A DNA stretch of 56,765 nucleotides, from the IMG/VR virus record IMGVR_UViG_3300045988_138309; one strand, written 5' to 3'. Below the pieces are notes generated by a model. That model ran no database searches, had not been told where the DNA came from, and saw nothing but the letters and a program-made list of their open reading frames with translations. Shown here one piece after another: positions 30,151-56,765 of this stretch. Within the stretch, counting starts at the first letter, position 1; each line of letters starts with the position of its first letter. Both the position numbers and the translations under genes were made by a program. This stretch comes from a virus.

Positions 30151-33100
30151 ATGCGCATCATGGACCTGGAGAAGGTCGTGAGCCAGGCCAGGAAGGCCGC
30201 CCAGGGCTCACACACGCCCTGTGGCCCGATCACGTGGGTCTGGGGCAAAGAGGACCTGAAGGCCCTCGTCAAGGCCGTCCACGCCTCGCAGAAGGTCGTC
30301 ATGGACCTCGAGACCACCGGCCTGGACGAGTACGCGGAGGCCGGCGGCGACACCAACGGCAGCTACCCCGCACGGATCGTCCTGGCCTCCCTGACCCTGC
30401 CCAGTGCCGAGCGCGCGGCGGCCGGTGCCTACAACTGGCGCAGCTTCGACGGCGAGCAGCCGATGACCTACCTAGTGCCTCTCTCGCACCCGGCCAGCCC
30501 CCTGCTCGGCTCGTGGAGGAAGGTCATGGCGATCATCGGCCGCGAGATCAACCGCAGCGGCAAGCCCTTCGTCAACGCGAACATCAAGTTCGACGCCCGG
30601 TGGGTCTTCGCCCAGGCCGGCGTGGACCTGTCCGACCGCATCGAGTGGGACACGACCGTCTCGTCCCAGCTGGTGGACACAGAGGCCCGCACCCGCCTCA
30701 AGATTCGCGCCGCGCGCGACTTCGGTATCGAGGAGTGGGACGACTTCGACCTAAGCACTCCAGGCGCCGCCGAGCAGGTCGACCTGATCCAGCTGGGCGA
30801 GTACGCCGCCCGTGACACCTACTACACCTGGAAGATCGAGGAGAAGCACCGCGACCAGATGTTCCTCGCCGGGGACGAGGAGCCCTTCGACTCCGACGAC
30901 ATCCAGATGGCCCGCCTAGGTAAGGTCGCCACCTACGTCGCCATGCCGACTGTGAAGACTCTCACAAAGGTGGAGCAGCGCGGCTTCCTGCTCGACGTCG
31001 ACTGGGTCCACGCCAAGATCGAGGAGATGGACGCCCTGCGCCTGAAGGCCTGCGAGGACATCCTCGGCCTGTACGGCACCGCCCCGGCGCCTGCGCCGGC
31101 GAAGGACGGCGTCACCACGGCCGCGACGTCGAAGTGGTTCCAGGGCTTCGTGGCCCAGGCCATCGAGGCCGGCGACCTGCGTGTGACGGCCCGCACGGAC
31201 TCCGGAAACGCTCAGTGGAACAAGGCGGTCCTCATCGCCCAGCAGCGTCAAGGCAGCCCCGCCGCCGACGCGTTGCTGCGCCACCGCGACGCGACGAAGA
31301 CGCTAGAGTTCCTGCGCTCGTGGCTGGAGCTCCGTGACCCAAACAACGTGATCCATGCCACATACAACGTGGGATTTGTAAAGACGGGAAGATTAAGTTG
31401 TGCCTCCCCGAATCTTCAACAGTGCCTACACGGTGCTGACGAGGTTCTTACCCGCTCCGGGTGGGTGCGGCTTGACGCTCTCGAGCACGGGGTCGAGATC
31501 ATGCAGGTCTCGGAGACCGGGGAGGGCTCCTGGGTCGTGCCTACCGGTTACGTGGACAAGCCCTACGCGGGAAACATGGTCCGCATGAAGTCGGATTGGA
31601 TCGACGTCCTCATGACCCCGGATCACCGCCTCCTGACCCACACCCGTGGCGGAGCTCCTCGCTGGGAGCGGGCCTCGCAGTGGGTGGGGACTGCCGGAAA
31701 GATCGTTGACCGCAAGTTCATCCGCGCTCTGACCTCCGCCCCAGATGCCCCCGACCTTACGGAATCTGAGCGCCGGGAGGTGCGCATGGCCATCGCCATG
31801 CAGGCCGACGGGTCGAGCTCCCGTAAGTCATGGCAGGCGACCGTCGTTAAAAAGCGGAAGGGGGAGGCCCTGATCGAGATGGGAGGAGAGTACCGCGCAG
31901 GATGGGCACGCCCCTGCTACACCCTCCGGGTCCCTAAAGAGAGCCTGTCCAAGTGGCTTGACCCGGAGAGCAAGAACTTCCGGCCCGAGGCATTCCTCGC
32001 TCTGAACCGGAAGGACTGCGCGTGGGCGCTCGACGAGATTCTTCGCTGGGACGGGGACTCTACTCGGGGGTGCACCTACACCCAGAACCAGGCACGCCGC
32101 CCCTCCGTAGACCTGGCACAGGCGCTGGCCGCAATGTGCGGGCGCTCGACCACTCTCTACCGGAAGCAGGTCGATGGGGTGACCTATCCCACGGCCAACT
32201 TCCACCGCAAGGCGATCCGCTACGCGTCCCGGATGTGGGTCACGGAAGAGCCCTACGACGGGCGGGTTTATTGCGTCTCTGTCCCATCGGGCGCCTTCCT
32301 GGCTCGGAGTGGTGGGACGGTCTGGGTCACCGGCAACTGCTCTGCGTCACTAAAACCTGCCTTCATCCCCCGTCCGGGGCACGTCCTGCTCGACCTCGAC
32401 TACAGCCAGGTCGAGCTGCGGGTGGCGGCGTTCATCTCCCGCTCTCAGCCTATGATCGAGGCATTCCAGCGTGGTGATGATCTTCACAGGCTCCTTGCTG
32501 CGAAGATCGCCGGAAAGGCGCCGGAGGACGTCACCAACCTGGAGCGCAAGCGGGCTAAGGCTGGCAACTTCGGCCTCCTCTACGGCATGAGCCCCGGCGG
32601 CTTCCAGTCCTACGCCGCCACCGCCTATGACGTTTCTCTCACTTTGGCGGAGGCTCAGGCCGTCCACAGCGCGTTCTTCGAGATGTGGGATGGCATGCGC
32701 CAGTGGCACGAGCGCGCCAAGCGCCGGGCCTACGAGCGCGGTTATGTGACATCCCCTATCGGGCGCACGCAGTGGCTGAGCGACCTCTACTCGAAGAGCT
32801 CGTTCAAGTCCTCCCACGCCGAGCGCAACGCCCTGAACAGCCCCGTGCAGGGCTTCGGCTCGGACCTCATGCAGATGGCGGCCGCCTCGATCATGGGGAC
32901 CCTGCCCGGCTACCCGCTGCCCCGAGTAGAGGGGGCGCACGTCGTTGCCACCGTCCACGACGAGATCTGCATCGAGGTGCCGGAGGACCGCTGGCAGGAG
33001 ATCCTGATCGAGTGCAAGCGCCGCATGGAGGACGTGAACACCTTCCTGCGCCCGCTCGACTGCCAGATGGACGTCCCGATCGTGGCCGGCCCCTCGGCCG

Positions 33101-33159
33101 GGACGCGCTGGGGCGTGCACGACCTGCACGACGAGGATGACCCGCTCCCAGCAGTCTGA
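30151..33159 (+). CDS. polA: Family-A DNA polymerase (3'-5' exonuclease plus polymerase) interrupted by an intein
   Basis: Exo I motif MDLETTGL; TGRLSCASPNLQQ; motif A DLDYSQVELRV; motif B KRAKAGNFGLLYG; motif C VHDE. 697 aa without the intein. Confidence 0.9.
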   Translation: MRIMDLEKVVSQARKAAQGSHTPCGPITWVWGKEDLKALVKAVHASQKVVMDLETTGLDEYAEAGGDTNGSYPARIVLASLTLPSAERAAAGAYNWRSFDGEQPMTYLVPLSHPASPLLGSWRKVMAIIGREINRSGKPFVNANIKFDARWVFAQAGVDLSDRIEWDTTVSSQLVDTEARTRLKIRAARDFGIEEWDDFDLSTPGAAEQVDLIQLGEYAARDTYYTWKIEEKHRDQMFLAGDEEPFDSDDIQMARLGKVATYVAMPTVKTLTKVEQRGFLLDVDWVHAKIEEMDALRLKACEDILGLYGTAPAPAPAKDGVTTAATSKWFQGFVAQAIEAGDLRVTARTDSGNAQWNKAVLIAQQRQGSPAADALLRHRDATKTLEFLRSWLELRDPNNVIHATYNVGFVKTGRLSCASPNLQQCLHGADEVLTRSGWVRLDALEHGVEIMQVSETGEGSWVVPTGYVDKPYAGNMVRMKSDWIDVLMTPDHRLLTHTRGGAPRWERASQWVGTAGKIVDRKFIRALTSAPDAPDLTESERREVRMAIAMQADGSSSRKSWQATVVKKRKGEALIEMGGEYRAGWARPCYTLRVPKESLSKWLDPESKNFRPEAFLALNRKDCAWALDEILRWDGDSTRGCTYTQNQARRPSVDLAQALAAMCGRSTTLYRKQVDGVTYPTANFHRKAIRYASRMWVTEEPYDGRVYCVSVPSGAFLARSGGTVWVTGNCSASLKPAFIPRPGHVLLDLDYSQVELRVAAFISRSQPMIEAFQRGDDLHRLLAAKIAGKAPEDVTNLERKRAKAGNFGLLYGMSPGGFQSYAATAYDVSLTLAEAQAVHSAFFEMWDGMRQWHERAKRRAYERGYVTSPIGRTQWLSDLYSKSSFKSSHAERNALNSPVQGFGSDLMQMAAASIMGTLPGYPLPRVEGAHVVATVHDEICIEVPEDRWQEILIECKRRMEDVNTFLRPLDCQMDVPIVAGPSAGTRWGVHDLHDEDDPLPAV
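31423..32337 (+). mobile_element. Class-1 intein (305 aa) with a LAGLIDADG-type homing endonuclease domain
   Basis: Inserted between PNLQQ and motif A. Block A CLHGADEVLT; block B LMTPDH; DOD motifs AIAMQADGSS and ILRWDGDST; blocks F/G VYCVSVPSGAFLA...VWVTGN followed by a +1 Cys. Confidence 0.8.
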
Positions 33160-33379: not shown

Positions 33380-33871
33380 ATGCGCAACGCGCTGCGCACC
33401 TACCCCGCCCGCAAGGCCACTATCCAGGGCCGCCCCGCCGTCCAGGTCCGGGACACGAAGAACGAGATCGAGTACTGGGTCGAGATCACCGACGAGCCGG
33501 ACGCCGGCGGCCGCTACCACGTCGTGAACCTCCTGTGCCGCCCAGACGCGGGCGTTCGCTTCCCCGATAGTGTCCCCCACAGGACCCTCTGTGAAATCGC
33601 CGCAAACGTGCTTGAGAGGGCCGAGAAGCCTGCACGGGGTGGCAACCAGTACCGAGGGGCCCCAGTCGAGACCCTGCGCGCGATGGTCGAGGAGGGCAAG
33701 ACCCGCACCGACATCGCCAAGGAGCTTGGCCGCAGCGTCTACACCGTGGACTCGTGGCTGCGCCGGGCTCGCCGCATCGACCCGACCTTCCCAGGCACGA
33801 TGACGAAGGGCGGGGCGCGACGCCCGGCTCGCAACCGGACCCCCTACCGAAGGGCTCCGAAGGGCGCCTGA
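33380..33871 (+). CDS. HTH DNA-binding protein with a basic C-terminus
   Basis: The segment TRTDIAKELGRSVYTVDSWLRRAR is HTH-like. GGAGACACC RBS. Confidence 0.55.
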   Translation: MRNALRTYPARKATIQGRPAVQVRDTKNEIEYWVEITDEPDAGGRYHVVNLLCRPDAGVRFPDSVPHRTLCEIAANVLERAEKPARGGNQYRGAPVETLRAMVEEGKTRTDIAKELGRSVYTVDSWLRRARRIDPTFPGTMTKGGARRPARNRTPYRRAPKGA

Positions 33872-33885
33872 GCCCCCTCTCCGAA

Positions 33886-33916
33886 GGGCCCCAGCCATCG
33901 CGGCTGGGGCCCTTTT
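33886..33916 (+). terminator. Intrinsic terminator
   Basis: GGGCCCCAGCC / GGCTGGGGCCC stem followed by TTTT. Confidence 0.75.
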
Positions 33917-34217
33917 GCGTGCCCTAGATCACGTCCCCGCCGTCCGTCCACATCCTGAGACAGGTGTCCGCATAGTGAGAAAGTGAGGGCGGTCACGGCG
34001 TTTTAAGCACGGTTGGAAGGGTAACTAATACTTATGTCAAAATGTGTATGCCAAGTTACAAGTTCCCCCGTACTCGGGCGTGTCGCACTACAACTTCCGC
34101 GTGTCGGGCCCCCTTACTGGGATTAATCAGTATGCCTGCATACTATTCCCAGATATGGGTGTGATGAATGTCTAACTTTTAAACCCCGATTCCGTGAACA
34201 AATTCACCAATTGGCTA

Positions 34218-34247
34218 TTGAAATGGCCCCCCTGAAAGTGCTATCAT
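34218..34247 (+). promoter_or_regulatory. Candidate promoter firing into the palindrome and desert
   Basis: TTGAAA, 18-nt spacer, TATCAT, at the edge of the AT-rich patch. Confidence 0.4.
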
Positions 34248-34262
34248 GCGCGCCCGCGCGCG

Positions 34263-34347
34263 CCCACACACACTCGCGCCCCCGGGTCTCCTCCCCCTGA
34301 CGGAGTCAGGGGGGGAGGAGACCCGAGGGGCGCTCGTGTTGTGTGGG
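34263..34347. repeat. 85-bp near-perfect palindrome (about 37 bp of pairing, 3-nt centre)
   Basis: CCCACACACACTCGCGCCCCCGGGTCTCCTCCCCCTGAC gga GTCAGGGGGGGAGGAGACCCGAGGGGCGCTCGTGTTGTGTGGG. Flanked by GCGCGCCCGCGCGCGC on one side and ATATATGTGTATATAT on the other. Confidence 0.85.
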
Positions 34348-35808
34348 TAGTGGAATATATGTGTATATATGAGCCAGGTCACACCTAGTGCCGAGCCCGT
34401 TTCCGCACCCGTTGCCGGTTCCGACCCGACCCCTCGCTCCGCTGCGCTCCGCTTCGGGGTCGGGTCCTTGAACCCCGGTCCGATCCGTGCCCGTCGCTAG
34501 CGCCGGGGAGCCTTCGCCCCTGCGGTGTCCGCGTGAAGGGCGCTGCGGCGCTGGGGCGCCGGTCGCCCACGCGTCCTCGCAGGTTCTTGGCTCCAGGCGG
34601 AGAGGCTTTCCTCGGGTCGCCGTGTTGAGGCTCGCTCCGCTTCGCTGCGCTCGGTCAACACGCCCGCCCCTCGGGCCTCTCTGCGACCTCGAGCGCCGAC
34701 GGCGCCCCGTCGAGATCCTGCGAGCCGGGACCTGAAAGCCGTGCCGCCGCACCTTCGTGCCGGGGATAGGGCCGCACATGCCCCCCAGAGGCCGTGTAAG
34801 CGATTCTGAGGGACTTTTACCTCGCCTCCGCACTCCGGGAGGGGTCCGGCCCTGAAAGGCGCTCAGAATGGCTTAGAACGCTCCTGAGGGATTCCGGCGC
34901 CGGGCCGCCCCGAGCCACGCCCACGCACCTTCGTTCCGGGAGGGGCCGCGCCGCCACCACGAATGTGATGACACTCACCCGAGAAATGGCCGCGTCGATT
35001 TGCATCGGGCCCCCGGATGGTGTTTAATAGACCCATCACCGCCGAGGGAGCGAAACTCCCCGGATTGGCCGCCGCAAGCCGGCGGCGGAAGTCCCTTTCC
35101 GGATGAGGAACTAACCCAAGGCGGTAGAGATACCCAGTCAGCTGGGAGGCTTTGCGAGTACGCGATGGCCTGGACGGACGGGACTCAGACGGGACACGCC
35201 TCCCGGGGTCCTAAGCCAAGTCGACCACCGCTATAAGGCCCGCACGGCCTGGATAACTGGATTCCGCCAATCATCACCACCGGCGTCGGGAAAGGCCTTG
35301 TGTGTTCCCCGTAGCCCCCGGCTCGTAGTTAGGGGTGGGCCGCCAAACGAGTCTCCGAAGTCGGTGAGGGTGTAGGACCGTGGGTTGAAGGCCCCGAGGT
35401 TCGCCGAGAAGCAAGCACAGGTCAGTGCGAGGGGACGGGGACCGGAGGACAACCTGAAACGCGATCCGTGACGCAGTCGACAGGTCCCGGTACGCGGGGA
35501 GAAGCGGCTCTGCAAGGAGCGCCCCGCTGAAACGCTTCCTCGGGAAGGTCCCCGCTAGACGAGCCCTTCGAGTGTGCTGTCACCACCGGCAGACTCGATC
35601 CGGTGAGACTGGCCCGGGAAGTCCCCCGAGCGATGGGAACCGTCTCTACGGGACCGTCCGGCCTGTGGTGGGCCTGGCGGCGACGTACGCGGGAAACTGA
35701 GACCGGATTCACCCGGACGTCTAGTCAACGTCTCATGAGCCTTCGTAATGAATGGACTTCCAGCCGCGGGACGCGGCAACGCCGGCCGGTAACGGCCCCT
35801 GGAACCTC

Positions 35809-35850
35809 TTGAGGTTCCACTACCCTTCGAGTAGTGTATGCGGGGCATAC
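35809..35850 (+). promoter_or_regulatory. Promoter with an overlapping palindromic operator
   Basis: TTGAGG, 17-nt spacer, TAGTGT. GTATGcggggCATAC (35836-35850) covers the -10 and +1. GGAACCTCTTGAGGTTCC (35801-35818) overlaps the -35. Confidence 0.45.
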
Positions 35851-35869
35851 ACCCGACAAAGGAGATGAC

Positions 35870-36214
35870 ATGCCCCGCCCCAGCAAGGACAAGCTCGTTC
35901 CCTACGTGGACGACCGCCCAGACCTCGACCAGCGGTTCGCGCCGTTGGATGCCCCCACATCGATCGACTTCGGCCGGAAGCCGGGAAACCCTTCCAGTCC
36001 TCGAAAGTCGGTGACCTTCACGATGAGGGAGGCTACCTGGGAGAGAGTCGTTCGCCGGGCAGAGCGCCAGGGCCTGCAGCCTAGGATCGTCCTAGCACGC
36101 CTCATGGAGGCGTACGGGAATCGCGAGCTCGACCTCGCACCTCACCCCTCGGGAATCAAGGTGACTCCCCACCGGACCACCTTCACCAATCCAGACAACC
36201 CCTCGAACCGGTGA
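35870..36214 (+). CDS. Small DNA-binding protein candidate (ribbon-helix-helix-like)
   Basis: ATG 35870 after AAAGGAG. The segment KSVTFTMREATWERVVRRAERQGL...IVLARLMEAY is RHH-like. Confidence 0.4.
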   Translation: MPRPSKDKLVPYVDDRPDLDQRFAPLDAPTSIDFGRKPGNPSSPRKSVTFTMREATWERVVRRAERQGLQPRIVLARLMEAYGNRELDLAPHPSGIKVTPHRTTFTNPDNPSNR

Positions 36215-36278: not shown

Positions 36279-38735
36279 ATGAGCACAACTGAGCAGCACA
36301 ACGCGGCCGTCGTAGAGGCGGCCCTTGACGCGTACCGCAGGGGGCTGACGCCCCTGCCCATCCCACGACACTCCAAGAGCCCGACAATGGCCAGCTGGAC
36401 TAAGCTCCGATGGCCGGACCCCACGACCGACACCGGGGAAGGTGAGGACGCCGTCCGTGCCGCCTTCGAGGAGTACACGGCCGGCGGCTCCACCAACCTC
36501 GGAGTCCTCCTCGGCGAGGCGTCGGGAGACCTCATCGACGTCGACCTGGACCACCCCGCCGCGGCGCGTCTGAAGTCGTACCTGCTGCCCCACACGGCAG
36601 CGGTCCACGGCCGCGAGACGTCCCGCAAGTCGCACTACTGGTACCGCGCCAAGCCGGGCACCCTGCCAGCTACGCGGCGCCTGCGCATCCCCGACAAGTC
36701 GGGCCGCGGCTCGGGCGTGTCGGTAGAGATCCGCGGTAACGGCGCACAGACCATCGTGCCGCCCTCGATCCACCCCGCCACGGCGGAGACCTATGAGTGG
36801 GAGGGTGAGCCGTGGGGCGGCGACGAGGGCCCCGCCGTCGTTGACGGCACCGAGCTCCTCGCGCAGGTGACCCTCCTCGGCCTGTGCGCCGTCCTCCTGG
36901 ACGCCTGGCCCGGGCCCGGCCAGCGCCACGACGCCTACGTCGCGCTTGCTGGCGGTCTCCTTCGTTACGGGGACTCGCAGACCGTGCACCCGTTCTGGGA
37001 GCGCAACGCGGGCCTCGTCATCCGCATCCTCGCTCAGGCCACTCACGACGAGGACGGGCCCGAGCAGCGCGAGCGTGAGGCGATCTACACGACCAAGCGC
37101 CGCCTTCGTGAGGGCGGGGAGGCTGTAGGTTTCACCCGCCTGGCCGAGTACATCGGGGAAGAGAGCGTGAAGGTCCTCGAGCGCCTAGTGCGCGACGCGG
37201 AGGCGGTGGCCGGCTTCGTGCCGGACGTGGCCGGTGACGTGCCAGGATGGCAGCCGCCGTGGGCGAAGCAGTGGGACGGTCTGACCATCGAGCTCGATGA
37301 GGACGCCCCCGCCCCCGCCTTCGTTGACGGGGACGATTCCTCCGAACCGCGGTCCTTGGGGGCCATTCGCCCGGACAACAGGCAGCCGGTGGCCGGAGAT
37401 GAGCCGTACGGGAAGGCTGGGGAGGCTGAGGAGGCCAGCCCGGACGATGACGTCGATGATGCTCGGGAGGACCTGGACCCCCCGGACCCCCTGGACGCTC
37501 GCCCCTCGTCCTGGAGCCCTGTCGACCTGGAGCCCTACCTGACCGGGAAGCTTAAGGTCCCGGCCCCGGAGGTCTGCCGCCGCAACGACGGCGCCTGCCT
37601 GATGTACCGAGGCCGCGTGAACATGCTCTTCGGTAGCAGCGAGTCGGCCAAGTCGTGGATCGCCATGGCGATCTGCCTTCAGGAGATTGAGGCCGGCGGC
37701 CGGGCCCTGTATCTCGACTTCGAGGATGAGCCGGTCCAGACGCTTAACCGCCTCCGCCTGCTGGGCGCCGTGGACGACGACCTTCGGGCTCAGTTCTCCT
37801 ACATCCGCCCCGAGGGGCCGCTGGCCGATATGCAGCGCAACAAGTGGGGTAAGGACCAGCCCACGAAGAGCGGAGAGTTCGCCCAGGACCAGTTCGACAT
37901 GGCGCTTCAGACCCTCGACCCGGACATCATCGTGGCCGACGGTATGACCGCCCTCTACGGCCTGCACGGCCTGGACGCGAACGACGCCGTTAGCACTGAC
38001 GTCATCACGTCTTGGCTGAAGCGTCTGACCCGTAACGGGCGCTCGACCGTCATCATCATCGATCACCAGGCCAAGAGCGCCGAGAAGGGATCCATGCCCA
38101 TCGGCTCGCAGCACAAGGTCGCCATGGTCCAGGGCACCCTGCTTCAGGTGTGGCCGATCAAGCAGCCCATGCCTGGCGACGTCGGTGAGATGGAGCTCGT
38201 CGTACTGAAGGACAGGCCCGGCCAGGTCCGCGCCCATTCCCAGAAGACCGGCGGGCGCGGCAAGGCGCAGGTGGCCGGAGTGGTCACTCTCGACAGCCGC
38301 ACCGAGGGGCGCTCGTCCCTCGTCATCACACCCCCTCGTCGCACCCCTTCCGGAGGCGGCGGCGGGCTGAGAGCAGACGGCGAGGACGTGAACGATGCCG
38401 AGAGGCGGGTTGAGCTGGACTTCACCGACATGTCCAAGGTGATGGAGAAGATGGCTCAGCGGCAGGACGACGAGGACACGGTCATCGGGGCGTTCAAGGG
38501 CGAGATAGGCGCCGAGCTGAGCTCGCGAGCCCTGTACGACCTAGTGGACGCTGACCTCCCGAGGAGCAGAACCAAGTCGGCCCTGGGCCGCCTTATCTCG
38601 CGAGGTTGGATCATGGCCGTAAGAGGCCGGGGAGGCAACCAGTACACGCTGGCCGCTGTGGGCGAGGACGGTACCGAGGAGCGGGACCTAGATGCCGCCG
38701 AGAACGGGAAGGAGAGTGAGGACGCCGGTGCGTGA
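36279..38735 (+). CDS. Bifunctional primase-polymerase (PrimPol) plus RecA-fold replicative helicase/ATPase
   Basis: N-terminus: GLTPLPI...K.P...W, DVDLD, SHYWY, VEIRGNG.QTIVPPSIHP. C-terminus: Walker-A-like GSSESAKS and IIIDHQAK. Confidence 0.8.
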   Translation: MSTTEQHNAAVVEAALDAYRRGLTPLPIPRHSKSPTMASWTKLRWPDPTTDTGEGEDAVRAAFEEYTAGGSTNLGVLLGEASGDLIDVDLDHPAAARLKSYLLPHTAAVHGRETSRKSHYWYRAKPGTLPATRRLRIPDKSGRGSGVSVEIRGNGAQTIVPPSIHPATAETYEWEGEPWGGDEGPAVVDGTELLAQVTLLGLCAVLLDAWPGPGQRHDAYVALAGGLLRYGDSQTVHPFWERNAGLVIRILAQATHDEDGPEQREREAIYTTKRRLREGGEAVGFTRLAEYIGEESVKVLERLVRDAEAVAGFVPDVAGDVPGWQPPWAKQWDGLTIELDEDAPAPAFVDGDDSSEPRSLGAIRPDNRQPVAGDEPYGKAGEAEEASPDDDVDDAREDLDPPDPLDARPSSWSPVDLEPYLTGKLKVPAPEVCRRNDGACLMYRGRVNMLFGSSESAKSWIAMAICLQEIEAGGRALYLDFEDEPVQTLNRLRLLGAVDDDLRAQFSYIRPEGPLADMQRNKWGKDQPTKSGEFAQDQFDMALQTLDPDIIVADGMTALYGLHGLDANDAVSTDVITSWLKRLTRNGRSTVIIIDHQAKSAEKGSMPIGSQHKVAMVQGTLLQVWPIKQPMPGDVGEMELVVLKDRPGQVRAHSQKTGGRGKAQVAGVVTLDSRTEGRSSLVITPPRRTPSGGGGGLRADGEDVNDAERRVELDFTDMSKVMEKMAQRQDDEDTVIGAFKGEIGAELSSRALYDLVDADLPRSRTKSALGRLISRGWIMAVRGRGGNQYTLAAVGEDGTEERDLDAAENGKESEDAGA

Positions 38736-53684: not shown

Positions 53685-53916
53685 GTTTCATGCCCGTGAA
53701 GGGGTCTAGGAGCCTGACTGACGGACTTTCAGGGCCGGGCAGGGCCGTCATACGGGTGGGGAGGTTCTAGGCCGTCAGAGAGGCTCTCACGGCCTCACAG
53801 GCGGCGGTCCCTCCGTAGGAGGGACGCGAGGTGCAGGGCAGCGGCCGCCCCGCTCGGGAGAGGCGGCCGAGCGGGGCGCGGCCTCTGAGGCCGCCAGAGC
53901 CCCTGAGACGGCCGAA

Positions 53917-53948
53917 CGCCCCGGTACCTAGGTGCAGGTACCGGGGCG
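53917..53948 (-). terminator. Terminator hairpin after the reverse-strand gene, nested in a 14-bp outer inverted repeat (53900-53913 / 53958-53971)
   Basis: CGCCCCGGTACC / GGTACCGGGGCG stem. Confidence 0.55.
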
Positions 53949-53972
53949 CGGGTGCTAGGCCGTCTCAGGGGC

Positions 53973-54509
53973 TTACAGGGCCGTGGAGAGGCGCTGCAGG
54001 GCGAGCCGGGCCGAGGGGGCGTGGGCCGCGGCCAGCGCGTAGCGGTCCTGCCAGCGGGTGAGCTGGTGCGGGTGCACGGCCCGAAGGGGGCTGTCCGGGG
54101 CCGGGCGCCGCCCGGCCGGGACGTCGTCCCAGGAGATCGGGACCGCGAACCACGTCCGTACGGACAGGCCGCCGTCGGCCAGCAGCTCCTCGGGGATCCC
54201 GTCGAGGGCGTGAGGGTCCTCTCGACGGACCGTGGACGCGGGGGCGGCGGCCCAGGCCGGGACCTGCTCGATCCGGGCGATGGAGTGGCCGCCGATCTCG
54301 CCCCACGTCCGGACCCGCCCCTCGCCCTGGACTTTGTAGGCGGGGGACGGGGAGGCCACGACGCTGACCGGCTGCCCGGCCAGAGGGTGCGGAGAGCCGT
54401 TAGGCAGGGTGGCCGGGTGCAGGGCCGGCTCGTCGTCGAAGGCGTGGTCGATGACTCGGTAGGTGGTTCGAGGGCTGTCGGTCTGGCTGAGGGAGTAGCG
54501 GTTGCTCAT
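53973..54509 (-). CDS. Hypothetical 178-aa protein, apparently leaderless
   Basis: Start MSNRYSLSQ at complement 54507-54509, 7 nt downstream of the -10. No Shine-Dalgarno. Confidence 0.5.
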   Translation of the reverse strand: MSNRYSLSQTDSPRTTYRVIDHAFDDEPALHPATLPNGSPHPLAGQPVSVVASPSPAYKVQGEGRVRTWGEIGGHSIARIEQVPAWAAAPASTVRREDPHALDGIPEELLADGGLSVRTWFAVPISWDDVPAGRRPAPDSPLRAVHPHQLTRWQDRYALAAAHAPSARLALQRLSTAL

Positions 54510-54545: not shown

Positions 54546-54586
54546 GCCGTCGAGGCGGGTCTGAGGGAGCTTGGGCCGGCTGCGCG

Positions 54587-55197
54587 AACCTGGGAGAAAC
54601 CTGGGAACGTAGTGTGGCGCCAGCCACAGGTCCTTATTGTATCTATGGCTTCCCCTCCCCTACGGGGAGGGGAAGCCTATTAGAGAATATGTAACTTAGC
54701 ATACAACCGCGCCATTCCAACGGAAAGTACGTATGCCCTGCATACATTAGGTACCGGCAAGTGTATGCTAAGTTACGTGTGACCCAGATCTCATGCAACC
54801 AGGCATACGTCACTTTGAGAAATTAATTTGAGTGACGGCATTCACATACCTGGAGGTACAGCGGGGGAGAAACCTGGGAGAACCCTGAGAAACCTGGGAG
54901 AACCCTGGGAACCGCTACGGCCCTGAGAGGGTCCGAGCTGGGCGGGCGGGTCCGGCCGAGCGGGGTCGGGCAGCCCTCTCGGAGAGGTCGGGAACCTGTA
55001 CCGGACCGGCCCGGGGCGTCTACGTACCGCCCCGCCGCCGGCGGTCGGACCGAGGAGAACGGAGCAGAGAGGCAGGCCGGACGGAAAGCGGCGCAGCGCT
55101 GGCGGGGCTGGCGGAATACCGCGGAAAACTGGGACGATGTATGCCGTCATAACGGACTTTTCGTTGCAATCCCAACGGTCGAGAAAACCTGGGACGG
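54587..55197 (+). repeat. Iteron-like AACC(C)TGGGA repeats, including a perfect 20-bp tandem duplication at 54867-54906
   Basis: Copies at about 54587, 54598, 54871, 54881, 54891, 54901, 55125 and 55185. All are in one orientation with local spacing of 10-11 bp. Confidence 0.75.
54691..54776. promoter_or_regulatory. Composite operator: two inverted 14-mers flanking a central palindrome
   Basis: GTAACTTAGCATAC (54691-54704), GTATGccctgCATAC (54731-54745) and GTATGCTAAGTTAC (54763-54776), in an AT-rich patch. Confidence 0.5.
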
Positions 55198-55363
55198 AAT
55201 TAGGCATGCCGTGGACCGTCCCCGCACCCACACCCGTTGGCTAGGCTAGCCGTGGCCGTGGTCACACAAGATGGCTGGATAGGCGGTGCCGGTCCGGTGC
55301 CGCTTGCCCCCGGCCGCCGCGCAGCGCGGCGGCCGCGGCTGCGCGCGAGCGCCCTCGGCGCCA

Positions 55364-55572
55364 GTGCATGACACGGTGCACCCTCATCGCTACGGCGCCT
55401 GCGCTCCGCTGCGCTCCGCGGCGCGGGCGCCTGGGCGATGAGTGCGCAGCGATGTCATACACGCGCCGTCGGGCACTCGCCCCTCGGTCGTACGGGCCCT
55501 GGCGGAGGCGTGCATGCCAGGGTGCACCCGCCTGCGCCTAGGGGCTCCGGCGGGTGCAGCCATGGCATACAC
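55364..55572. repeat. Two related long imperfect hairpins (55364-55462 and 55509-55572)
   Basis: Arms GTGCATGmCA..GGTGCACCC pair with ..TGkCATACAC. The apex of the first hairpin carries the 18-mer CGCTCCGCTGCGCTCCGC. Confidence 0.7.
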
Positions 55573-55687
55573 GCCCCGGCAGGGGAGGGCTGTGCGGGGC
55601 GGCTCACCTCGAGGCGGGGTGTCGATCGGGCTGGCGCCCTCTCGAACCGCCTCGGGCTCGGGGTGCCCGCTACGCCCTCAGGTCCGG

Positions 55688-55840
55688 TCAGCCGGAGAGG
55701 CTGAACGGGTTGGAGAGCAGCCCTCCCAGGCAGAGCCCGGCCGACAGGAGGGCGACCGTGAGCATGAGGAGGAACAGGCGGTCAGAGACGCTGTGAGCGG
55801 CCCTGGGGCGGCGATGGCGGGGGCGGTCGGGGGTAGGCAT
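55688..55840 (-). CDS. 50-aa membrane protein, not in the ORF track
   Basis: AAGGAGACC RBS. MPTPDRPRHRRPRAAHSVSDRLFLLMLTVALLSAGLCLGGLLSNPFSLSG. Lies directly downstream of the junction gene. Confidence 0.45.
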   Translation of the reverse strand: MPTPDRPRHRRPRAAHSVSDRLFLLMLTVALLSAGLCLGGLLSNPFSLSG

Positions 55841-55908
55841 GCCAGGTCTCCTTAGAGTGCGTGAGAGGGGCTGTCAGGGGTAGGCGACGGGACGGCTGGG
55901 CGGGCGGC

Positions 55909-56765
55909 CTAGCGGCGGGTCAGGCCGCTCATCGAGCCGTCGTGCTCGAGGAGGACGGCTCGCCGGGAGTCGGAGGAGACGTGGGCCAGGCAGGGCAGGG
56001 GGGTGTCCGGCGCGGTCGTGCAGCGGGGCAGGTCGAGAGGGGAGGCGGACGGGTCGGTGCGGTCGTAGGGGGCGTGGGTGTCGGAGGTGACCCAGGTGGA
56101 GGCGACCGTAGTGGCCGGGGCGGGGGACTTGGAGGCCGGGGAGGGCTGAGTGGAGGGGGAGGGTCTGGTAACGCGCGTTAGCGCCGGTCGGGTGGAGGGA
56201 GATGGGGCCCCTGAGGGGGTGGAAGCGGGGGTATGTGGGGATGAGGGGAGCTGCTCGGGGACGGGGGTGCCGGATCCGGCGGGGCGGCACTCGCTCTGGG
56301 CGCGGTCCCGGTCGCTCACGACCAGGGCGTGGCAGTAGGCCCGAGCGGTGCGGTGGGCGTTGATGGCGGCCACGTTGCAGGCGCCGATGATCGCGGCCAC
56401 GAGGGCGGCGCCGATGGCGAGCTGCATGAGGGAGGGGTGCCACGCCATGGAGGGGCGGCGCAGGATGCCGGGGCGGCCCATGTCCTGGAGCGGGGTCTCC
56501 TGCCCGGGCTGGGAGGGGGCCTGCTCGGGCCGGGCGCCCTGCGCGCCGGGGCGGCTCGGGCGGAGGATCGAGCGTCGGGCGGGGAGGGGGAACGCGGCGG
56601 TAGGGGCCGCGTCGGCCCGGCTGAGGCGGGGGCCGTCGGCCGGGTCGGCCGGGTCGAGGTATCGGCTGGGGCGGGGGTCGACCCGCCACCCTTCGGGCAG
56701 GGGGTAGCCGGTGGGGTAGGTGGCGGTGGGGCGGTCGGTGCTGGGGCGGTCGGTGCTGGGGCGGT
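55909..56765 (-). CDS. Remainder of the junction-spanning gene: Pro/Ser/Thr-rich single-pass membrane protein, function unknown
   Basis: TM helix LMQLAIGAALVAAIIGACNVAAI with high GC3 in this frame. The competing 271-aa frame (55874..56689) is R/P-rich shadow sequence. The frame stays open upstream of the listed Met at 56481. Confidence 0.7.
   Translation of the reverse strand, partial: RPSTDRPSTDRPTATYPTGYPLPEGWRVDPRPSRYLDPADPADGPRLSRADAAPTAAFPLPARRSILRPSRPGAQGARPEQAPSQPGQETPLQDMGRPGILRRPSMAWHPSLMQLAIGAALVAAIIGACNVAAINAHRTARAYCHALVVSDRDRAQSECRPAGSGTPVPEQLPSSPHTPASTPSGAPSPSTRPALTRVTRPSPSTQPSPASKSPAPATTVASTWVTSDTHAPYDRTDPSASPLDLPRCTTAPDTPLPCLAHVSSDSRRAVLLEHDGSMSGLTRR
56711..56765. repeat. Second copy of the 55-nt terminal overlap
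   Basis: Identical to 1-55. Confidence 0.95.

What the first reader, a model, noticed from the sequence alone, without database searches (positions are those of the whole stretch)
33917..35808. 1.9-kb coding desert inside the replication module
Almost 1.9 kb between a clean terminator (33886-33916) and the promoter at 35809 has no credible ORF. Every frame gives R/P/G-rich peptides. The long frames I read (for example 35000..35236) are full of A/T-ending codons. Such gaps are rare in a tightly packed phage genome. This one sits between the polymerase and the primase-helicase. It contains an AT-rich patch with operator motifs, an 85-bp palindrome, hairpins with a conserved loop, threefold repeats and a long hairpin-rich tail. 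Plausible roles are a replication origin, a large structured RNA, or both. I could not match it to an RNA family by eye.
Basis: partly seen in the sequence, partly recalled or inferred. Interest (0 to 1): 0.75.

Follow-up and report, generated by a model that had tools for sequence, protein, structure and literature searches.

The report
Conserved structured non-coding region in phage
A 2-kb stretch between the DNA polymerase and primase genes of an uncultured oral actinobacterial phage encodes no protein, yet is kept in more than 100 related genomes with its hairpins preserved by compensating mutations. It is most likely a promoter-driven structured RNA leader, a replication origin, or both, of a kind not yet catalogued.

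Summary
Window 33872-35869 is the largest non-coding stretch of this roughly 57-kb, 67% GC phage genome.

- **No coding signal.** There is no 3-base periodicity of substitutions. No ORF of 20 aa or more is conserved. GC3 is flat. Independent gene callers leave the stretch empty.
- **Conservation.** All relatives found (IMG/VR, metagenomes, Dulem virus 38) keep a 1.8-2.6 kb gap at this position.
- **Structure.** RNAalifold on 55 genomes gives 93 compensatory pairs (51 clean). The neighbouring primase gene, treated the same way, gives 9 (2 clean).
- **Anatomy, in order.** Terminator. AT-rich regulatory patch. Conserved promoter with an operator. 85-nt palindrome capped by a GNA triloop. AT-rich alternating tract. 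Two hairpins with invariant (CGCTN)x4 loops. A two-hairpin domain that is 98% paired. A 113-nt domain shared by all clades. A more variable tail. A second promoter-like site with an operator just before the next gene.
- **Database matches.** No Rfam family matches, in the window or in relatives.

The best reading is a plus-strand structured leader or ncRNA with a core at about 34250-35180, probably overlapping the replication origin. A purely DNA-level origin remains a serious rival, because wobble-pair asymmetry is weak overall. The pentamer-repeat loops recur in hairpins of unrelated viruses and bacteria. The function is unproven, and the finding is moderately to highly interesting.

The parts
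33884..33917 (+). Intrinsic terminator closing the polymerase/HTH operon. 13-bp stem, 5-nt loop, TTTT tail.
   Evidence: Perfect inverted repeat I7. 4 compensatory pairs and 99% pairing in relatives. The T run is on the + strand only.
33990..34245 (.). AT-rich (47% GC) regulatory patch. Mosaic, with two haplotypes among relatives. Contains the first copy of the GSCCCCC-N6-KGNTWW repeat (34107-34125).
34195..34208 (.). Operator-like inverted repeat GTGAA-N4-TTCAC, about 10 nt upstream of the -35 box. The arms are invariant and the spacer varies.
   Evidence: Alignment of 74 genomes.
34218..34247 (+). Promoter-like site with TTGAAA/TTGCAa at -35, a 17-18 nt spacer and an extended -10 (TGnTAtcnn). 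It points into the structured region. The second copy of the repeat (34226-34244) lies in its spacer.
   Evidence: Scan scores 10 of 12. TTGCA, TG and TA are kept in all group-1 sequences.
34263..34347 (+). 85-nt palindrome (about 40-bp hairpin) with a conserved TC/TC internal mismatch and a tip that is always C[GNA]G on the + strand. It is preceded by a small GCGCGC hairpin at 34247-34262.
   Evidence: Tips are GGA 31, GAA 19 and GTA 5. Deletions in the two arms are matched. Present in group 2 and in Dulem virus.
34351..34375 (.). Alternating purine-pyrimidine AT-rich tract GGAATATATGTGTATATATGAGCC (32% GC). Candidate DNA-unwinding element or -10 region. An AT-rich tract follows the palindrome in every clade.
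   Evidence: A minus-strand promoter-like match overlaps it.
34423..34466 (+). Hairpin H1. 11-bp stem, with a loop made of four CGCTN pentamers.
   Evidence: 4 compensatory pairs and 99% pairing. The pentamer pattern occurs only at three places in the window, all on the + strand.
34493..34687 (+). Most conserved domain. Two long hairpins (34501-34599 and 34600-34681) are closed by 34493-98/34682-87. The second carries hairpin H3 (34621-34662) with a (CGCTN)x4 loop.
   Evidence: 98.1% of cells paired. 14 pairs changed on both sides against 8.5 +/- 1 in shuffles (0 of 500) and 1-4 when slid. Column conservation 0.88-0.98, above the flanking genes.
34780..34892 (+). Domain D, a bulged hairpin with a conserved GGCCCUGAAAGG segment. 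It is the only part alignable by sequence between the two main clades.
   Evidence: Covariance model R1 finds it at the syntenic place on the + strand in Dulem virus (85 bits) and in all group-2 genomes (27-57 bits). G.U 35 against A.C 12 cells.
35008..35026 (+). Third copy of the GSCCCCC-N6-KGNTWW repeat, preceded by TTGCAT. Possible internal promoter or binding site.
   Evidence: (D2, D5).
35036..35146 (+). Conserved hairpin 35036-35128 (nested helices, 3+2 compensatory pairs) and small hairpin 35133-35146 (3 compensatory pairs).
35375..35777 (+). Variable tail with locally conserved hairpins: 35375-35467, 35494-35527 (inner stem 35507-35520 capped by GCAA/GTAA), 35538-35632, 35685-35703 (GAAA loop), 35715-35733 and 35763-35777 (GGA loop).
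   Evidence: 2-6 compensatory pairs each. The fold energy of this half is not exceptional.
35809..35869 (+). Promoter-like TTGAGG...TAGTGT, the perfect palindrome GTGTATGC-GGG-GCATACAC (35834-35852, operator-like), and the RBS AGGAGA (35860-35865) before the ATG of the 114-aa ORF at 35870.
   Evidence: Conservation 0.96. Similar palindromes at 54729 and 55554.
55380..55440 (+). Third hairpin with a (CGCTN) repeat loop. It lies outside the finding, in the second-largest non-coding stretch.

Best explanation
The gap is a conserved non-coding control region at the head of the primase/replication operon. A regulated sigma-70-type promoter (34218-34247, with an operator at 34195-34208) most likely drives a rightward transcript. 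That transcript begins with a very stable 40-bp hairpin and continues through a series of conserved, independently folding hairpin domains. The well-supported core is about 34250-35180, and the looser tail runs to 35800. The transcript then reaches a second promoter/operator and the 114-aa ORF and Prim-Pol helicase genes.

This structured leader or ncRNA would control expression of the replication genes. Alternatively, or in addition, it would act as a pre-primer or R-loop former at an origin made of the palindrome plus the AT-rich tract, in the manner of phage T4 or ColE1.

Shown: the region is non-coding, it is conserved, pairing is maintained by compensatory change, and the promoter-like sequence is conserved. 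Inferred: transcription, the folded strand, and any role in replication.
For: - **Non-coding.**
- **Present in every relative.** Gap length is 1.8-2.0 kb in group 1, 2.3-2.6 kb in group 2 and 2.06 kb in Dulem virus. It is absent from the nearest cultured relatives, the Microbacterium phages, where polymerase and primase are close-packed.
- **Selection for pairing.** 93 compensatory columns, 51 of them clean, among 540 predicted pairs. The primase coding control from the same 55 genomes gives 9, 2 of them clean, among 612. Formal test on 34490-34690: covariation score 0.147 against 0.064 in shuffles, reached by 0 of 500 shuffles. Fold z-score is -3.96 for 34250-35249.
- **Plus-strand signatures.**
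  - The promoter is conserved in 74 sequences directly upstream.
  - No terminator lies before 35870.
  - The palindrome tip is always GNA on the + strand. The hairpin at 35507-20 is capped by GCAA/GTAA, with 4 compensatory stem pairs. There is a GAAA loop at 35692.
  - Three invariant G.U pairs lie in the best-conserved domain.
  - Domain D tolerates G.U in many genomes but A.C only in singletons. Across clades it shows G.U 35 against A.C 12.
  - CGCTNCGCT occurs 353 times on + and 3 times on - in 79 gaps.
  - CTGAAA: 5 of the 7 + strand copies in the genome lie here.
Against: - There are no transcript data.
- Across all predicted pairs, single-step G.U and A.C minority states are equal (193 against 182). 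The coding control shows the 2:1 bias that the folding program itself introduces. Pairs predicted on both strands give only G.U 410 against A.C 257 cells.
- The -10 box often lacks the final T.
- None of the predicted long-range helices has compensatory support, so there is no evidence of a global fold.
- The right-hand kilobase folds no better than shuffled sequence.
- No Rfam family matches.
- All the supported structures are local hairpins, which DNA can form as well.
Confidence: 0.45

Rival explanations
1. The region is a purely DNA-level replication origin. The palindrome extrudes as a cruciform, the adjacent AT-rich alternating tract melts, and the hairpins with pentamer-repeat loops act as single-strand initiation signals for the adjacent Prim-Pol primase-helicase. 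On the minus strand those loops read as overlapping GCGNAGC 'mini-hairpin' heptamers. Any RNA made here would be incidental.
For: - The region lies between the polymerase and the primase-helicase.
- A palindrome followed by an AT-rich tract is conserved in all clades.
- G.U and A.C minority states are symmetric.
- Only local hairpins are supported.
- GCGNAGC and GCGNNAGC mini-hairpins are documented in three settings: the primase-dependent origins of phages G4, St-1 and alpha3; RSF1010 ssiA; and N4 hairpin promoters (PMC13037366).
- Two Microviridae-like contigs carry the NAGCG repeats on the gene-sense strand, in an intergenic region.
- All three copies in this phage are on one strand.
- The slope of the cumulative GC skew changes near 36-38 kb.
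Against: - An origin does not normally need 1.5 kb of covarying hairpins.
- The palindrome tip, the GNRA caps and the G.U pattern of domain D are specific to the plus strand, while the mini-hairpin reading needs the minus strand.
- No clustered iterons were found.
- ssi signals of the RSF1010 type lie on opposite strands, and these do not.
- The same loop motif also sits in REP-like repeats of Bradyrhizobium and Asanoa, so it is not specific to origins.
- The phage has no N4-type RNA polymerase.
Confidence: 0.3
2. The region is a patchwork with no integrated function: ordinary promoters, operators and a terminator, plus palindromic REP-like hairpins that persist because they are stable or selfish.
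For: - The region alternates conserved blocks with indel-rich blocks.
- Promoter/operator-like sites sit at both ends and in the middle.
- The loop motif occurs in multi-copy bacterial repeats.
- There is no long-range structure.
- The tail is thermodynamically unremarkable.
Against: - Blocks 34380-34690 and 34780-34880 are more conserved than the neighbouring protein genes, unpaired loops included.
- The order of elements is kept across clades whose stems have fully diverged.
- Gap length is maintained in more than 100 genomes of a compact phage.
Confidence: 0.15
3. The region encodes one or more small or unusual proteins that were missed.
For: The Dulem virus 38 record annotates about six hypothetical CDS inside the homologous stretch. 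Long ORFs exist on both strands, as expected at 65% GC.
Against: - No codon periodicity.
- No ORF of 20 aa or more is conserved.
- GC3 is flat.
- Indels that shift the reading frame are common.
- No Pfam or PHROG hits.
- Gene callers skip the region.
Confidence: 0.03

Closest known systems
Large ornate bacterial and phage non-coding RNAs (GOLLD, ROOL, OLE, raiA, HEARO)
   Same: - Several hundred to about 900 nt of conserved, covarying, non-coding sequence.
- Carried by phages or prophages.
- Function unknown; found by comparative genomics (PMC5737381, PMC12286853).
   Different: - No covariance-model match to any of them.
- Here only local hairpin domains are supported. There are no multi-stem junctions, pseudoknots or long-range helices.
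- The folded strand is not established.
Transcription-primed origins: ColE1 RNA II with a primosome assembly site, and the phage T4 oriF/oriG and T7 primary origins (from my own knowledge)
   Same: - A promoter lies a short distance upstream of an easily melted tract.
- The transcript is structured.
- A family A DNA polymerase is encoded next door.
- Hairpin signals lie downstream.
   Different: - No antisense RNA I-like partner, RNase H site or persistent-hybrid G/C tracts were identified.
- The structured part is two to three times longer than RNA II.
- Nothing here was tested functionally.
Single-strand initiation (ssi) signals and GCGNAGC mini-hairpins of G4, St-1, alpha3, RSF1010 ssiA and N4 promoters (PMC13037366)
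   Same: Read on the minus strand, the loops of H1, H3 and the third hairpin are runs of overlapping GCGNAGC heptamers. They sit on hairpins next to a primase gene.
   Different: - All copies are on one strand.
- The motif lies in a large loop rather than at the apex of a short stem.
- The heptamers overlap, so only alternate ones could fold.
- The plus-strand features of neighbouring elements point to the other strand.
REP-like repetitive extragenic palindromes
   Same: GC-rich intergenic hairpins with a conserved apical sequence. The same 19-mer, CGCTCCGCTTCGCTNCGCT, caps repeated hairpins in Bradyrhizobium and Asanoa.
   Different: - There are only three copies in the phage.
- Their stems are unrelated to one another and to the bacterial ones.
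- They are embedded in a conserved larger architecture.

Membership tests
Any Rfam 15 family (including GOLLD, ROOL, raiA, HEARO, OLE, group I/II introns, tmRNA, riboswitches) | Covariance-model score at or above the family's gathering threshold | tested here: not met
   There were 0 hits in the whole window. In E-value mode only hairpin-shaped miRNA models hit the palindrome, at less than half their thresholds. There were 0 hits at E<=0.05 in Dulem virus and two group-2 loci.
Structured non-coding RNA (generic) | Base pairs maintained by compensatory substitutions above background | tested here: met
   93 (51 clean) compensatory pairs against 9 (2 clean) in the coding control. 0 of 500 shuffles reach the observed covariation in 34490-34690.
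Structured non-coding RNA (generic) | Strand-specific tolerance of G.U over A.C | tested here: inconclusive
   Met in domain D, and by invariant G.U pairs in 34490-34690. Not met over all predicted pairs: 193 against 182.
Structured non-coding RNA (generic) | The region is transcribed on the modelled strand | not testable with these tools
   The only evidence is a conserved promoter-like site.
Protein-coding gene | Conserved ORF, 3-periodic substitutions, high GC3 in this genome | tested here: not met
Intrinsic terminator (33884-33917) | GC-rich stem followed by a T run, with pairing conserved | tested here: met
   The consensus scan did not list it, because the tail has 4 T, not 5.
Theta-type replication origin | AT-rich unwinding element next to initiator-binding repeats | tested here: inconclusive
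   An AT-rich tract follows the palindrome in all clades. Three dispersed repeats exist, but not a clustered iteron array.
Theta-type replication origin | Switch of GC skew at the site | tested here: inconclusive
   There is only a change of slope near 36-38 kb.
RSF1010-type ssi pair | Two hairpin signals on opposite strands | tested here: not met
   All copies are on one strand: 353 against 3 in 79 genomes.
GCGNAGC mini-hairpin motif | Heptamer GCGNAGC present | tested here: met
   The reverse complement of the loops at 34433-34453, 34631-34651 and 55402-55420 reads as overlapping GCGNAGC. Definition from PMC13037366.
N4-type hairpin promoter | The phage encodes a virion or single-subunit RNA polymerase | tested here: not met
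   No such protein is among the large ORFs.

The most novel reading that the evidence does not exclude
The core 34250-35180 is a new class of large (about 0.9 kb or more) phage-encoded structured RNA, conserved in over 100 oral actinobacterial phage genomes, that acts as a pre-primer or regulator for the phage's own PolA/Prim-Pol replication machinery. Its invariant pentamer-repeat hairpin loops, (CGCUN)4 or (NAGCG)4 on the other strand, belong to an unrecognised, very widespread hairpin-cap motif. That motif is shared with Microviridae-like, CRESS-like and tailed-phage contigs and with bacterial REP-like repeats, and may mark priming or protein-loading sites on single strands.
Probability: 0.2. 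Interest if true: 0.85.

Novelty: new variant of a known kind. Interest (0 to 1): 0.62.

Why it matters
**Rarity.** Compact phage genomes rarely keep 2 kb without a gene. This one has done so across clades whose primase proteins are only 54-75% identical, and parts of the gap are more conserved than the neighbouring proteins.

**If it is a transcript.** It adds a new, large, phage-specific structured RNA from the human oral microbiome to a very short list (GOLLD, ROOL). It also places one beside the replication genes, which suggests an experiment: does it prime or gate replication?

**If it is a DNA element.** It is an unusually elaborate origin for a Prim-Pol type primase-helicase, whose initiation signals are poorly known.

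**Practical consequences.**
- The small CDS annotated in the homologous region of Dulem virus 38 are probably spurious.
- The pentamer-repeat loop motif deserves a systematic survey.

Tried and rejected
- **Rfam.** Searched at gathering and at permissive thresholds on the window, on three relatives and on 30 other loci carrying the loop motif. Nothing relevant was found.
- **tRNA/tmRNA scan.** Only a doubtful permuted 'tmRNA' call far from the region.
- **Protein explanations.** Pfam and PHROGs on all long gap ORFs, a periodicity test and an ORF conservation test were all negative.
- **Prophage or host search in GTDB genomes with the primase profile.** Nothing found.
- **Alignment-fold energy as a discriminator.** Useless: the coding control scored lower (-1160) than the gap (-974).
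- **Naive covariation scan counting G.U switches.** Swamped by noise.
- **Mismatch-type census in single-sequence stems.** No strand signal, and stem density equal to coding DNA.
- **Long-range helices from RNAalifold.** No compensatory support, and several are broken by uncompensated changes.
- **Shared neighbour gene for the loop motif in unrelated contigs.** None. The neighbours are terminases, capsid, helicases, Rep and others.
- **First 'hairpin context' metric for those contigs.** It was no better than its control and was replaced by a strict one. The orientation count of 11 against 2 rests on the lenient set and is weak.
- **Protelomerase target.** Considered for the palindrome and rejected, because its centre is variable and not palindromic.
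- **Fetching crAssphage to inspect its copy of the motif.** Failed.
- **Metatranscriptome evidence.** The contig look-up does not say which runs are RNA.
Full report
**Context.** The window is a near-complete genome of a tailed phage, 67% GC. Gene order is:
- portal, capsid, tape measure and endolysin;
- a family A DNA polymerase (30151-33159);
- a 163-aa HTH protein (33380-33871);
- the gap;
- a 114-aa ORF (35870-36214);
- a Prim-Pol/AAA_25 primase-helicase (36279-38735);
- an SNF2-type helicase, exonuclease, Sak4, SSB and the large terminase.

It encodes no RNA polymerase of its own. The only annotated relative is Dulem virus 38, from lemur saliva. IMG/VR and metagenome scans with the primase gave 137 further loci, mostly from human oral samples. 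No prophage was found in GTDB representative genomes. The nearest cultured relatives are Microbacterium phages (primase 46-52% identical). In those phages polymerase and primase are separated only by two small genes, so the gap is a feature of this lineage.

**The observation.**
- The terminator 33884-33914 is a perfect 13-bp stem with a T tail on the plus strand, and it keeps pairing through four compensatory changes.
- From there to the ATG at 35870 nothing behaves like a gene.
  - The fraction of variable alignment columns is flat over the three codon phases in every 150-nt window. The flanking genes show the expected excess at the third position. The same holds for the larger gap of the second clade.
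  - No ORF of 20 codons or more is intact in more than 64% of 55 genomes.
  - GC3 of the gap ORFs is 0.58-0.76, against 0.79-0.87 for genes.
  - None hits Pfam or PHROGs.
  - Gene callers used by public collections leave the interval empty.
- With a GC3 filter it is the largest uncovered stretch of the window, at 2407 nt. The next, at 54546-55908, is 1363 nt.

**Conservation.** Every relative keeps a gap between the HTH gene and the 114-aa ORF. It is 1.8-2.0 kb in group 1, 2.3-2.6 kb in group 2 and 2.06 kb in Dulem virus. Within group 1 the gap is 70-87% identical to the window, but unevenly so. Blocks 34330-34480, 34530-34680 (0.98), 34780-34880, 35030-35080, 35130-35180 and 35680-35780 are as conserved as the flanking genes, or more so. 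They alternate with indel-rich blocks.

**Structure.** RNAalifold on 55 full-length sequences predicts about 540 pairs. The energy itself is uninformative: a primase coding segment of the same length from the same genomes scores lower. Covariation does discriminate.
- 93 predicted pairs in the gap show two or more Watson-Crick types, each in at least two genomes. 51 of these have at most 5% non-canonical cells.
- The control gives 9 and 2, although the numbers of variable pairs are similar (413 and 368).

The best helices, with their counts of compensatory pairs, are:
- the palindrome;
- H1 (34423-33/34456-66, 4 pairs);
- the nested helices of 34501-34599;
- H3 (34621-28/34655-62, 3);
- 35036-43/35120-28 (3);
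- 35133-37/35142-46 (3);
- 35494-99/35522-27 with 35507-11/35516-20 (4);
- 35538-44/35625-32 (5);
- 35715-20/28-33 (3);
- 35763-68/72-77 (4).

For 34490-34690 the dedicated count gives 98.1% paired cells. It also gives 14 pairs with changes on both sides, against 8.5 +/- 1.0 in shuffles (0 of 500) and 1-4 when partners are slid. Many of those changes are linked in two haplotypes, so the number of independent events is smaller than the number of pairs.

The left kilobase folds far better than shuffles (z = -3.96). The right kilobase does not (z = -0.66). Long-range helices proposed by the program have no compensatory support, and some carry uncompensated C.A mismatches. What is supported is therefore a chain of local domains, not a global fold.

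**Anatomy from left to right.**
- After the terminator comes a 47% GC patch with two alternative haplotypes.
- It ends in an invariant inverted repeat GTGAA-N4-TTCAC and a promoter-like site. TTGCA (-35), TG and TA (extended -10) are kept in all 74 non-redundant sequences, although the last base of the -10 is often C.
- The predicted start falls at the first bases of a GC-rich alternating run.
- Next is the 85-nt palindrome. Its arms carry a conserved TC/TC mismatch. Its tip varies in length through matched deletions, but always reads C-GNA-G on the plus strand.
- The same palindrome, followed by an AT-rich alternating tract, is present in group 2 and in Dulem virus.
- Then come H1, the two-hairpin domain containing H3, a variable linker, and domain D.
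- Domain D is the only segment alignable between clades. A covariance model built from group 1 finds it at the syntenic place, on the plus strand, in every clade. It also finds weak paralogues at 53.7-54.0 kb in the window.
- A 19-nt element GSCCCCC-N6-KGNTWW occurs three times in the genome, all in the gap on the plus strand. One copy lies inside the promoter spacer.
- The region ends with a conserved promoter-like site, a perfect 8+8 palindrome and the ribosome-binding site of the 114-aa ORF. Related palindromes lie in the second non-coding region.

**Which molecule folds?**
- For a plus-strand RNA:
  - the conserved promoter, and the absence of a terminator;
  - GNA and GNRA caps on the plus strand;
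  - three invariant G.U pairs in the most conserved domain;
  - domain D, where A-U/G.U and G-C/G.U alternation is common while A.C occurs only in single genomes, with G.U 35 against A.C 12 cells across clades;
  - the strict strand specificity of CGCTNCGCT (353 against 3 in 79 gaps; 33 against 30 in the flanks) and of CTGAAA.
- Against it:
  - taken over all predicted pairs, one-step G.U and A.C variants are equally frequent (193 and 182), whereas the control shows the 2:1 bias expected from the algorithm;
  - pairs predicted on both strands give only 410 against 257 cells.

I therefore regard plus-strand folding as likely for domain D, the 34490-34690 domain and some tail hairpins. It is not demonstrated for the whole region.

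**The pentamer-repeat loops.** H1, H3 and a third hairpin at 55380-55440 have unrelated stems but loops made of four CGCTN units. These are the only matches in the window, where about one is expected by chance. Group 2 and Dulem virus also carry CGCTGCGCT in the loops of hairpins whose stems have diverged completely.

- My first test of hairpin context was no better than its control.
- A strict test asks for a contiguous stem of 7 bp or more within 8 nt of the motif. It gives 10 of 112 viral occurrences against 0.3% in controls, and 36 of 119 bacterial occurrences against 0.9%.
- The carriers include CRESS-like Rep-encoding contigs, two Microviridae-like genomes, tailed phages from 29 to 73% GC, and repeated REP-like hairpins of Bradyrhizobium and Asanoa.
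- A crAssphage primer also contains the sequence (PMC4111155).
- No neighbouring gene family is shared, and no Rfam family covers these sites.

Read on the other strand, the motif is a run of overlapping GCGNAGC heptamers. This is the 'mini-hairpin' sequence reported at the primase-dependent origins of G4, St-1 and alpha3, near RSF1010 ssiA, and in N4 hairpin promoters (PMC13037366). That is a lead for a priming or loading role next to a primase gene. It is not a test, and it points to the strand opposite to the other strand-specific features.

**Verdict.**
- The finding is real and not ordinary: a conserved, structured, non-coding module of about 2 kb with no catalogued relative.
- I put about 0.45 on a promoter-driven structured leader or ncRNA, possibly serving a transcription-activated origin.
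- I put about 0.30 on a DNA-only origin.
- I put about 0.15 on a patchwork of regulatory sites and stable palindromes.
- I put about 0.03 on missed coding.
- The decisive data would be strand-specific transcript mapping and a read-depth or marker-frequency profile. Both are feasible with public oral metagenomes and metatranscriptomes.

Noticed in passing
window 30151-33159 (roughly aa 423-738): The family A DNA polymerase appears to carry an intein-like insert of about 305 aa. The middle of the protein hits PHROGs of unrelated intein-bearing families (PhoH, thymidylate synthase, ribonucleotide reductase). Several close relatives have a 697-aa polymerase instead of 1002 aa.
   Followed up: partly
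window 54546-55908: This is the second-largest non-coding stretch.
- It holds the third (CGCTN)-loop hairpin (55380-55440).
- It holds a repeated element GTGCATG.CA.GGTGCACCC (about 55366 and 55510).
- It holds operator-like palindromes related to 35834-35852 (54729, 55554).
- GC skew is inverted here.
- A small minus-strand ORF with a strong RBS starts at about 55841.

It looks like a second control region, with leftward genes.
   Followed up: partly
window 55519-56003: ARAGORN calls a permuted tmRNA with tag DGTAGRAA. No Rfam tmRNA model matches the window, and the interval overlaps likely minus-strand coding sequence. It is probably a false positive.
   Followed up: partly
window 53690-53805 and 53881-53992: The covariance model finds weak paralogues of domain D here (19-29 bits), in a 351-nt non-coding stretch. 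One contains GGCCCTGAAAG on the minus strand.
   Followed up: partly
L140-L378 (unrelated viral and bacterial loci): Hairpins capped by (CGCTN)n, often exactly CGCTCCGCTTCGCTNCGCT, occur far above chance in CRESS-like, Microviridae-like and tailed-phage contigs. They also occur as repeated REP-like elements in Bradyrhizobium and Asanoa. No Rfam family covers them. In some bacterial copies the element could also be read as a short peptide (..ALRFAAL..).
   Followed up: partly
L136 (BNJU01003555.1) compared with L035: The primase of L136 is only 54% identical to the window's, yet its gap is 91% identical to that of L035. This indicates recombination between lineages around this region. Within group 1, the 34490-34690 domain and the 34000-34150 patch each exist as two haplotypes that reassort.
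   Followed up: no
L001 5473-7378 (Dulem virus 38, PP511596.1 42655-44560): The GenBank record annotates six short hypothetical CDS inside the homologous non-coding region. Given the tests here, they are probably spurious.
   Followed up: partly
window 35351-35356 and 35861-35866: An invariant GTCTCC, 500 nt upstream, is complementary to the ribosome-binding site of the 114-aa ORF. Because both sides never vary, the pairing can be neither supported nor refuted.
   Followed up: no
L123 (BNJU01004934.1, 131,672 nt): One relative sits on a contig more than twice the phage's length. This could be a concatemer, a misassembly, or an integrated or host-linked copy that would reveal the host.
   Followed up: no
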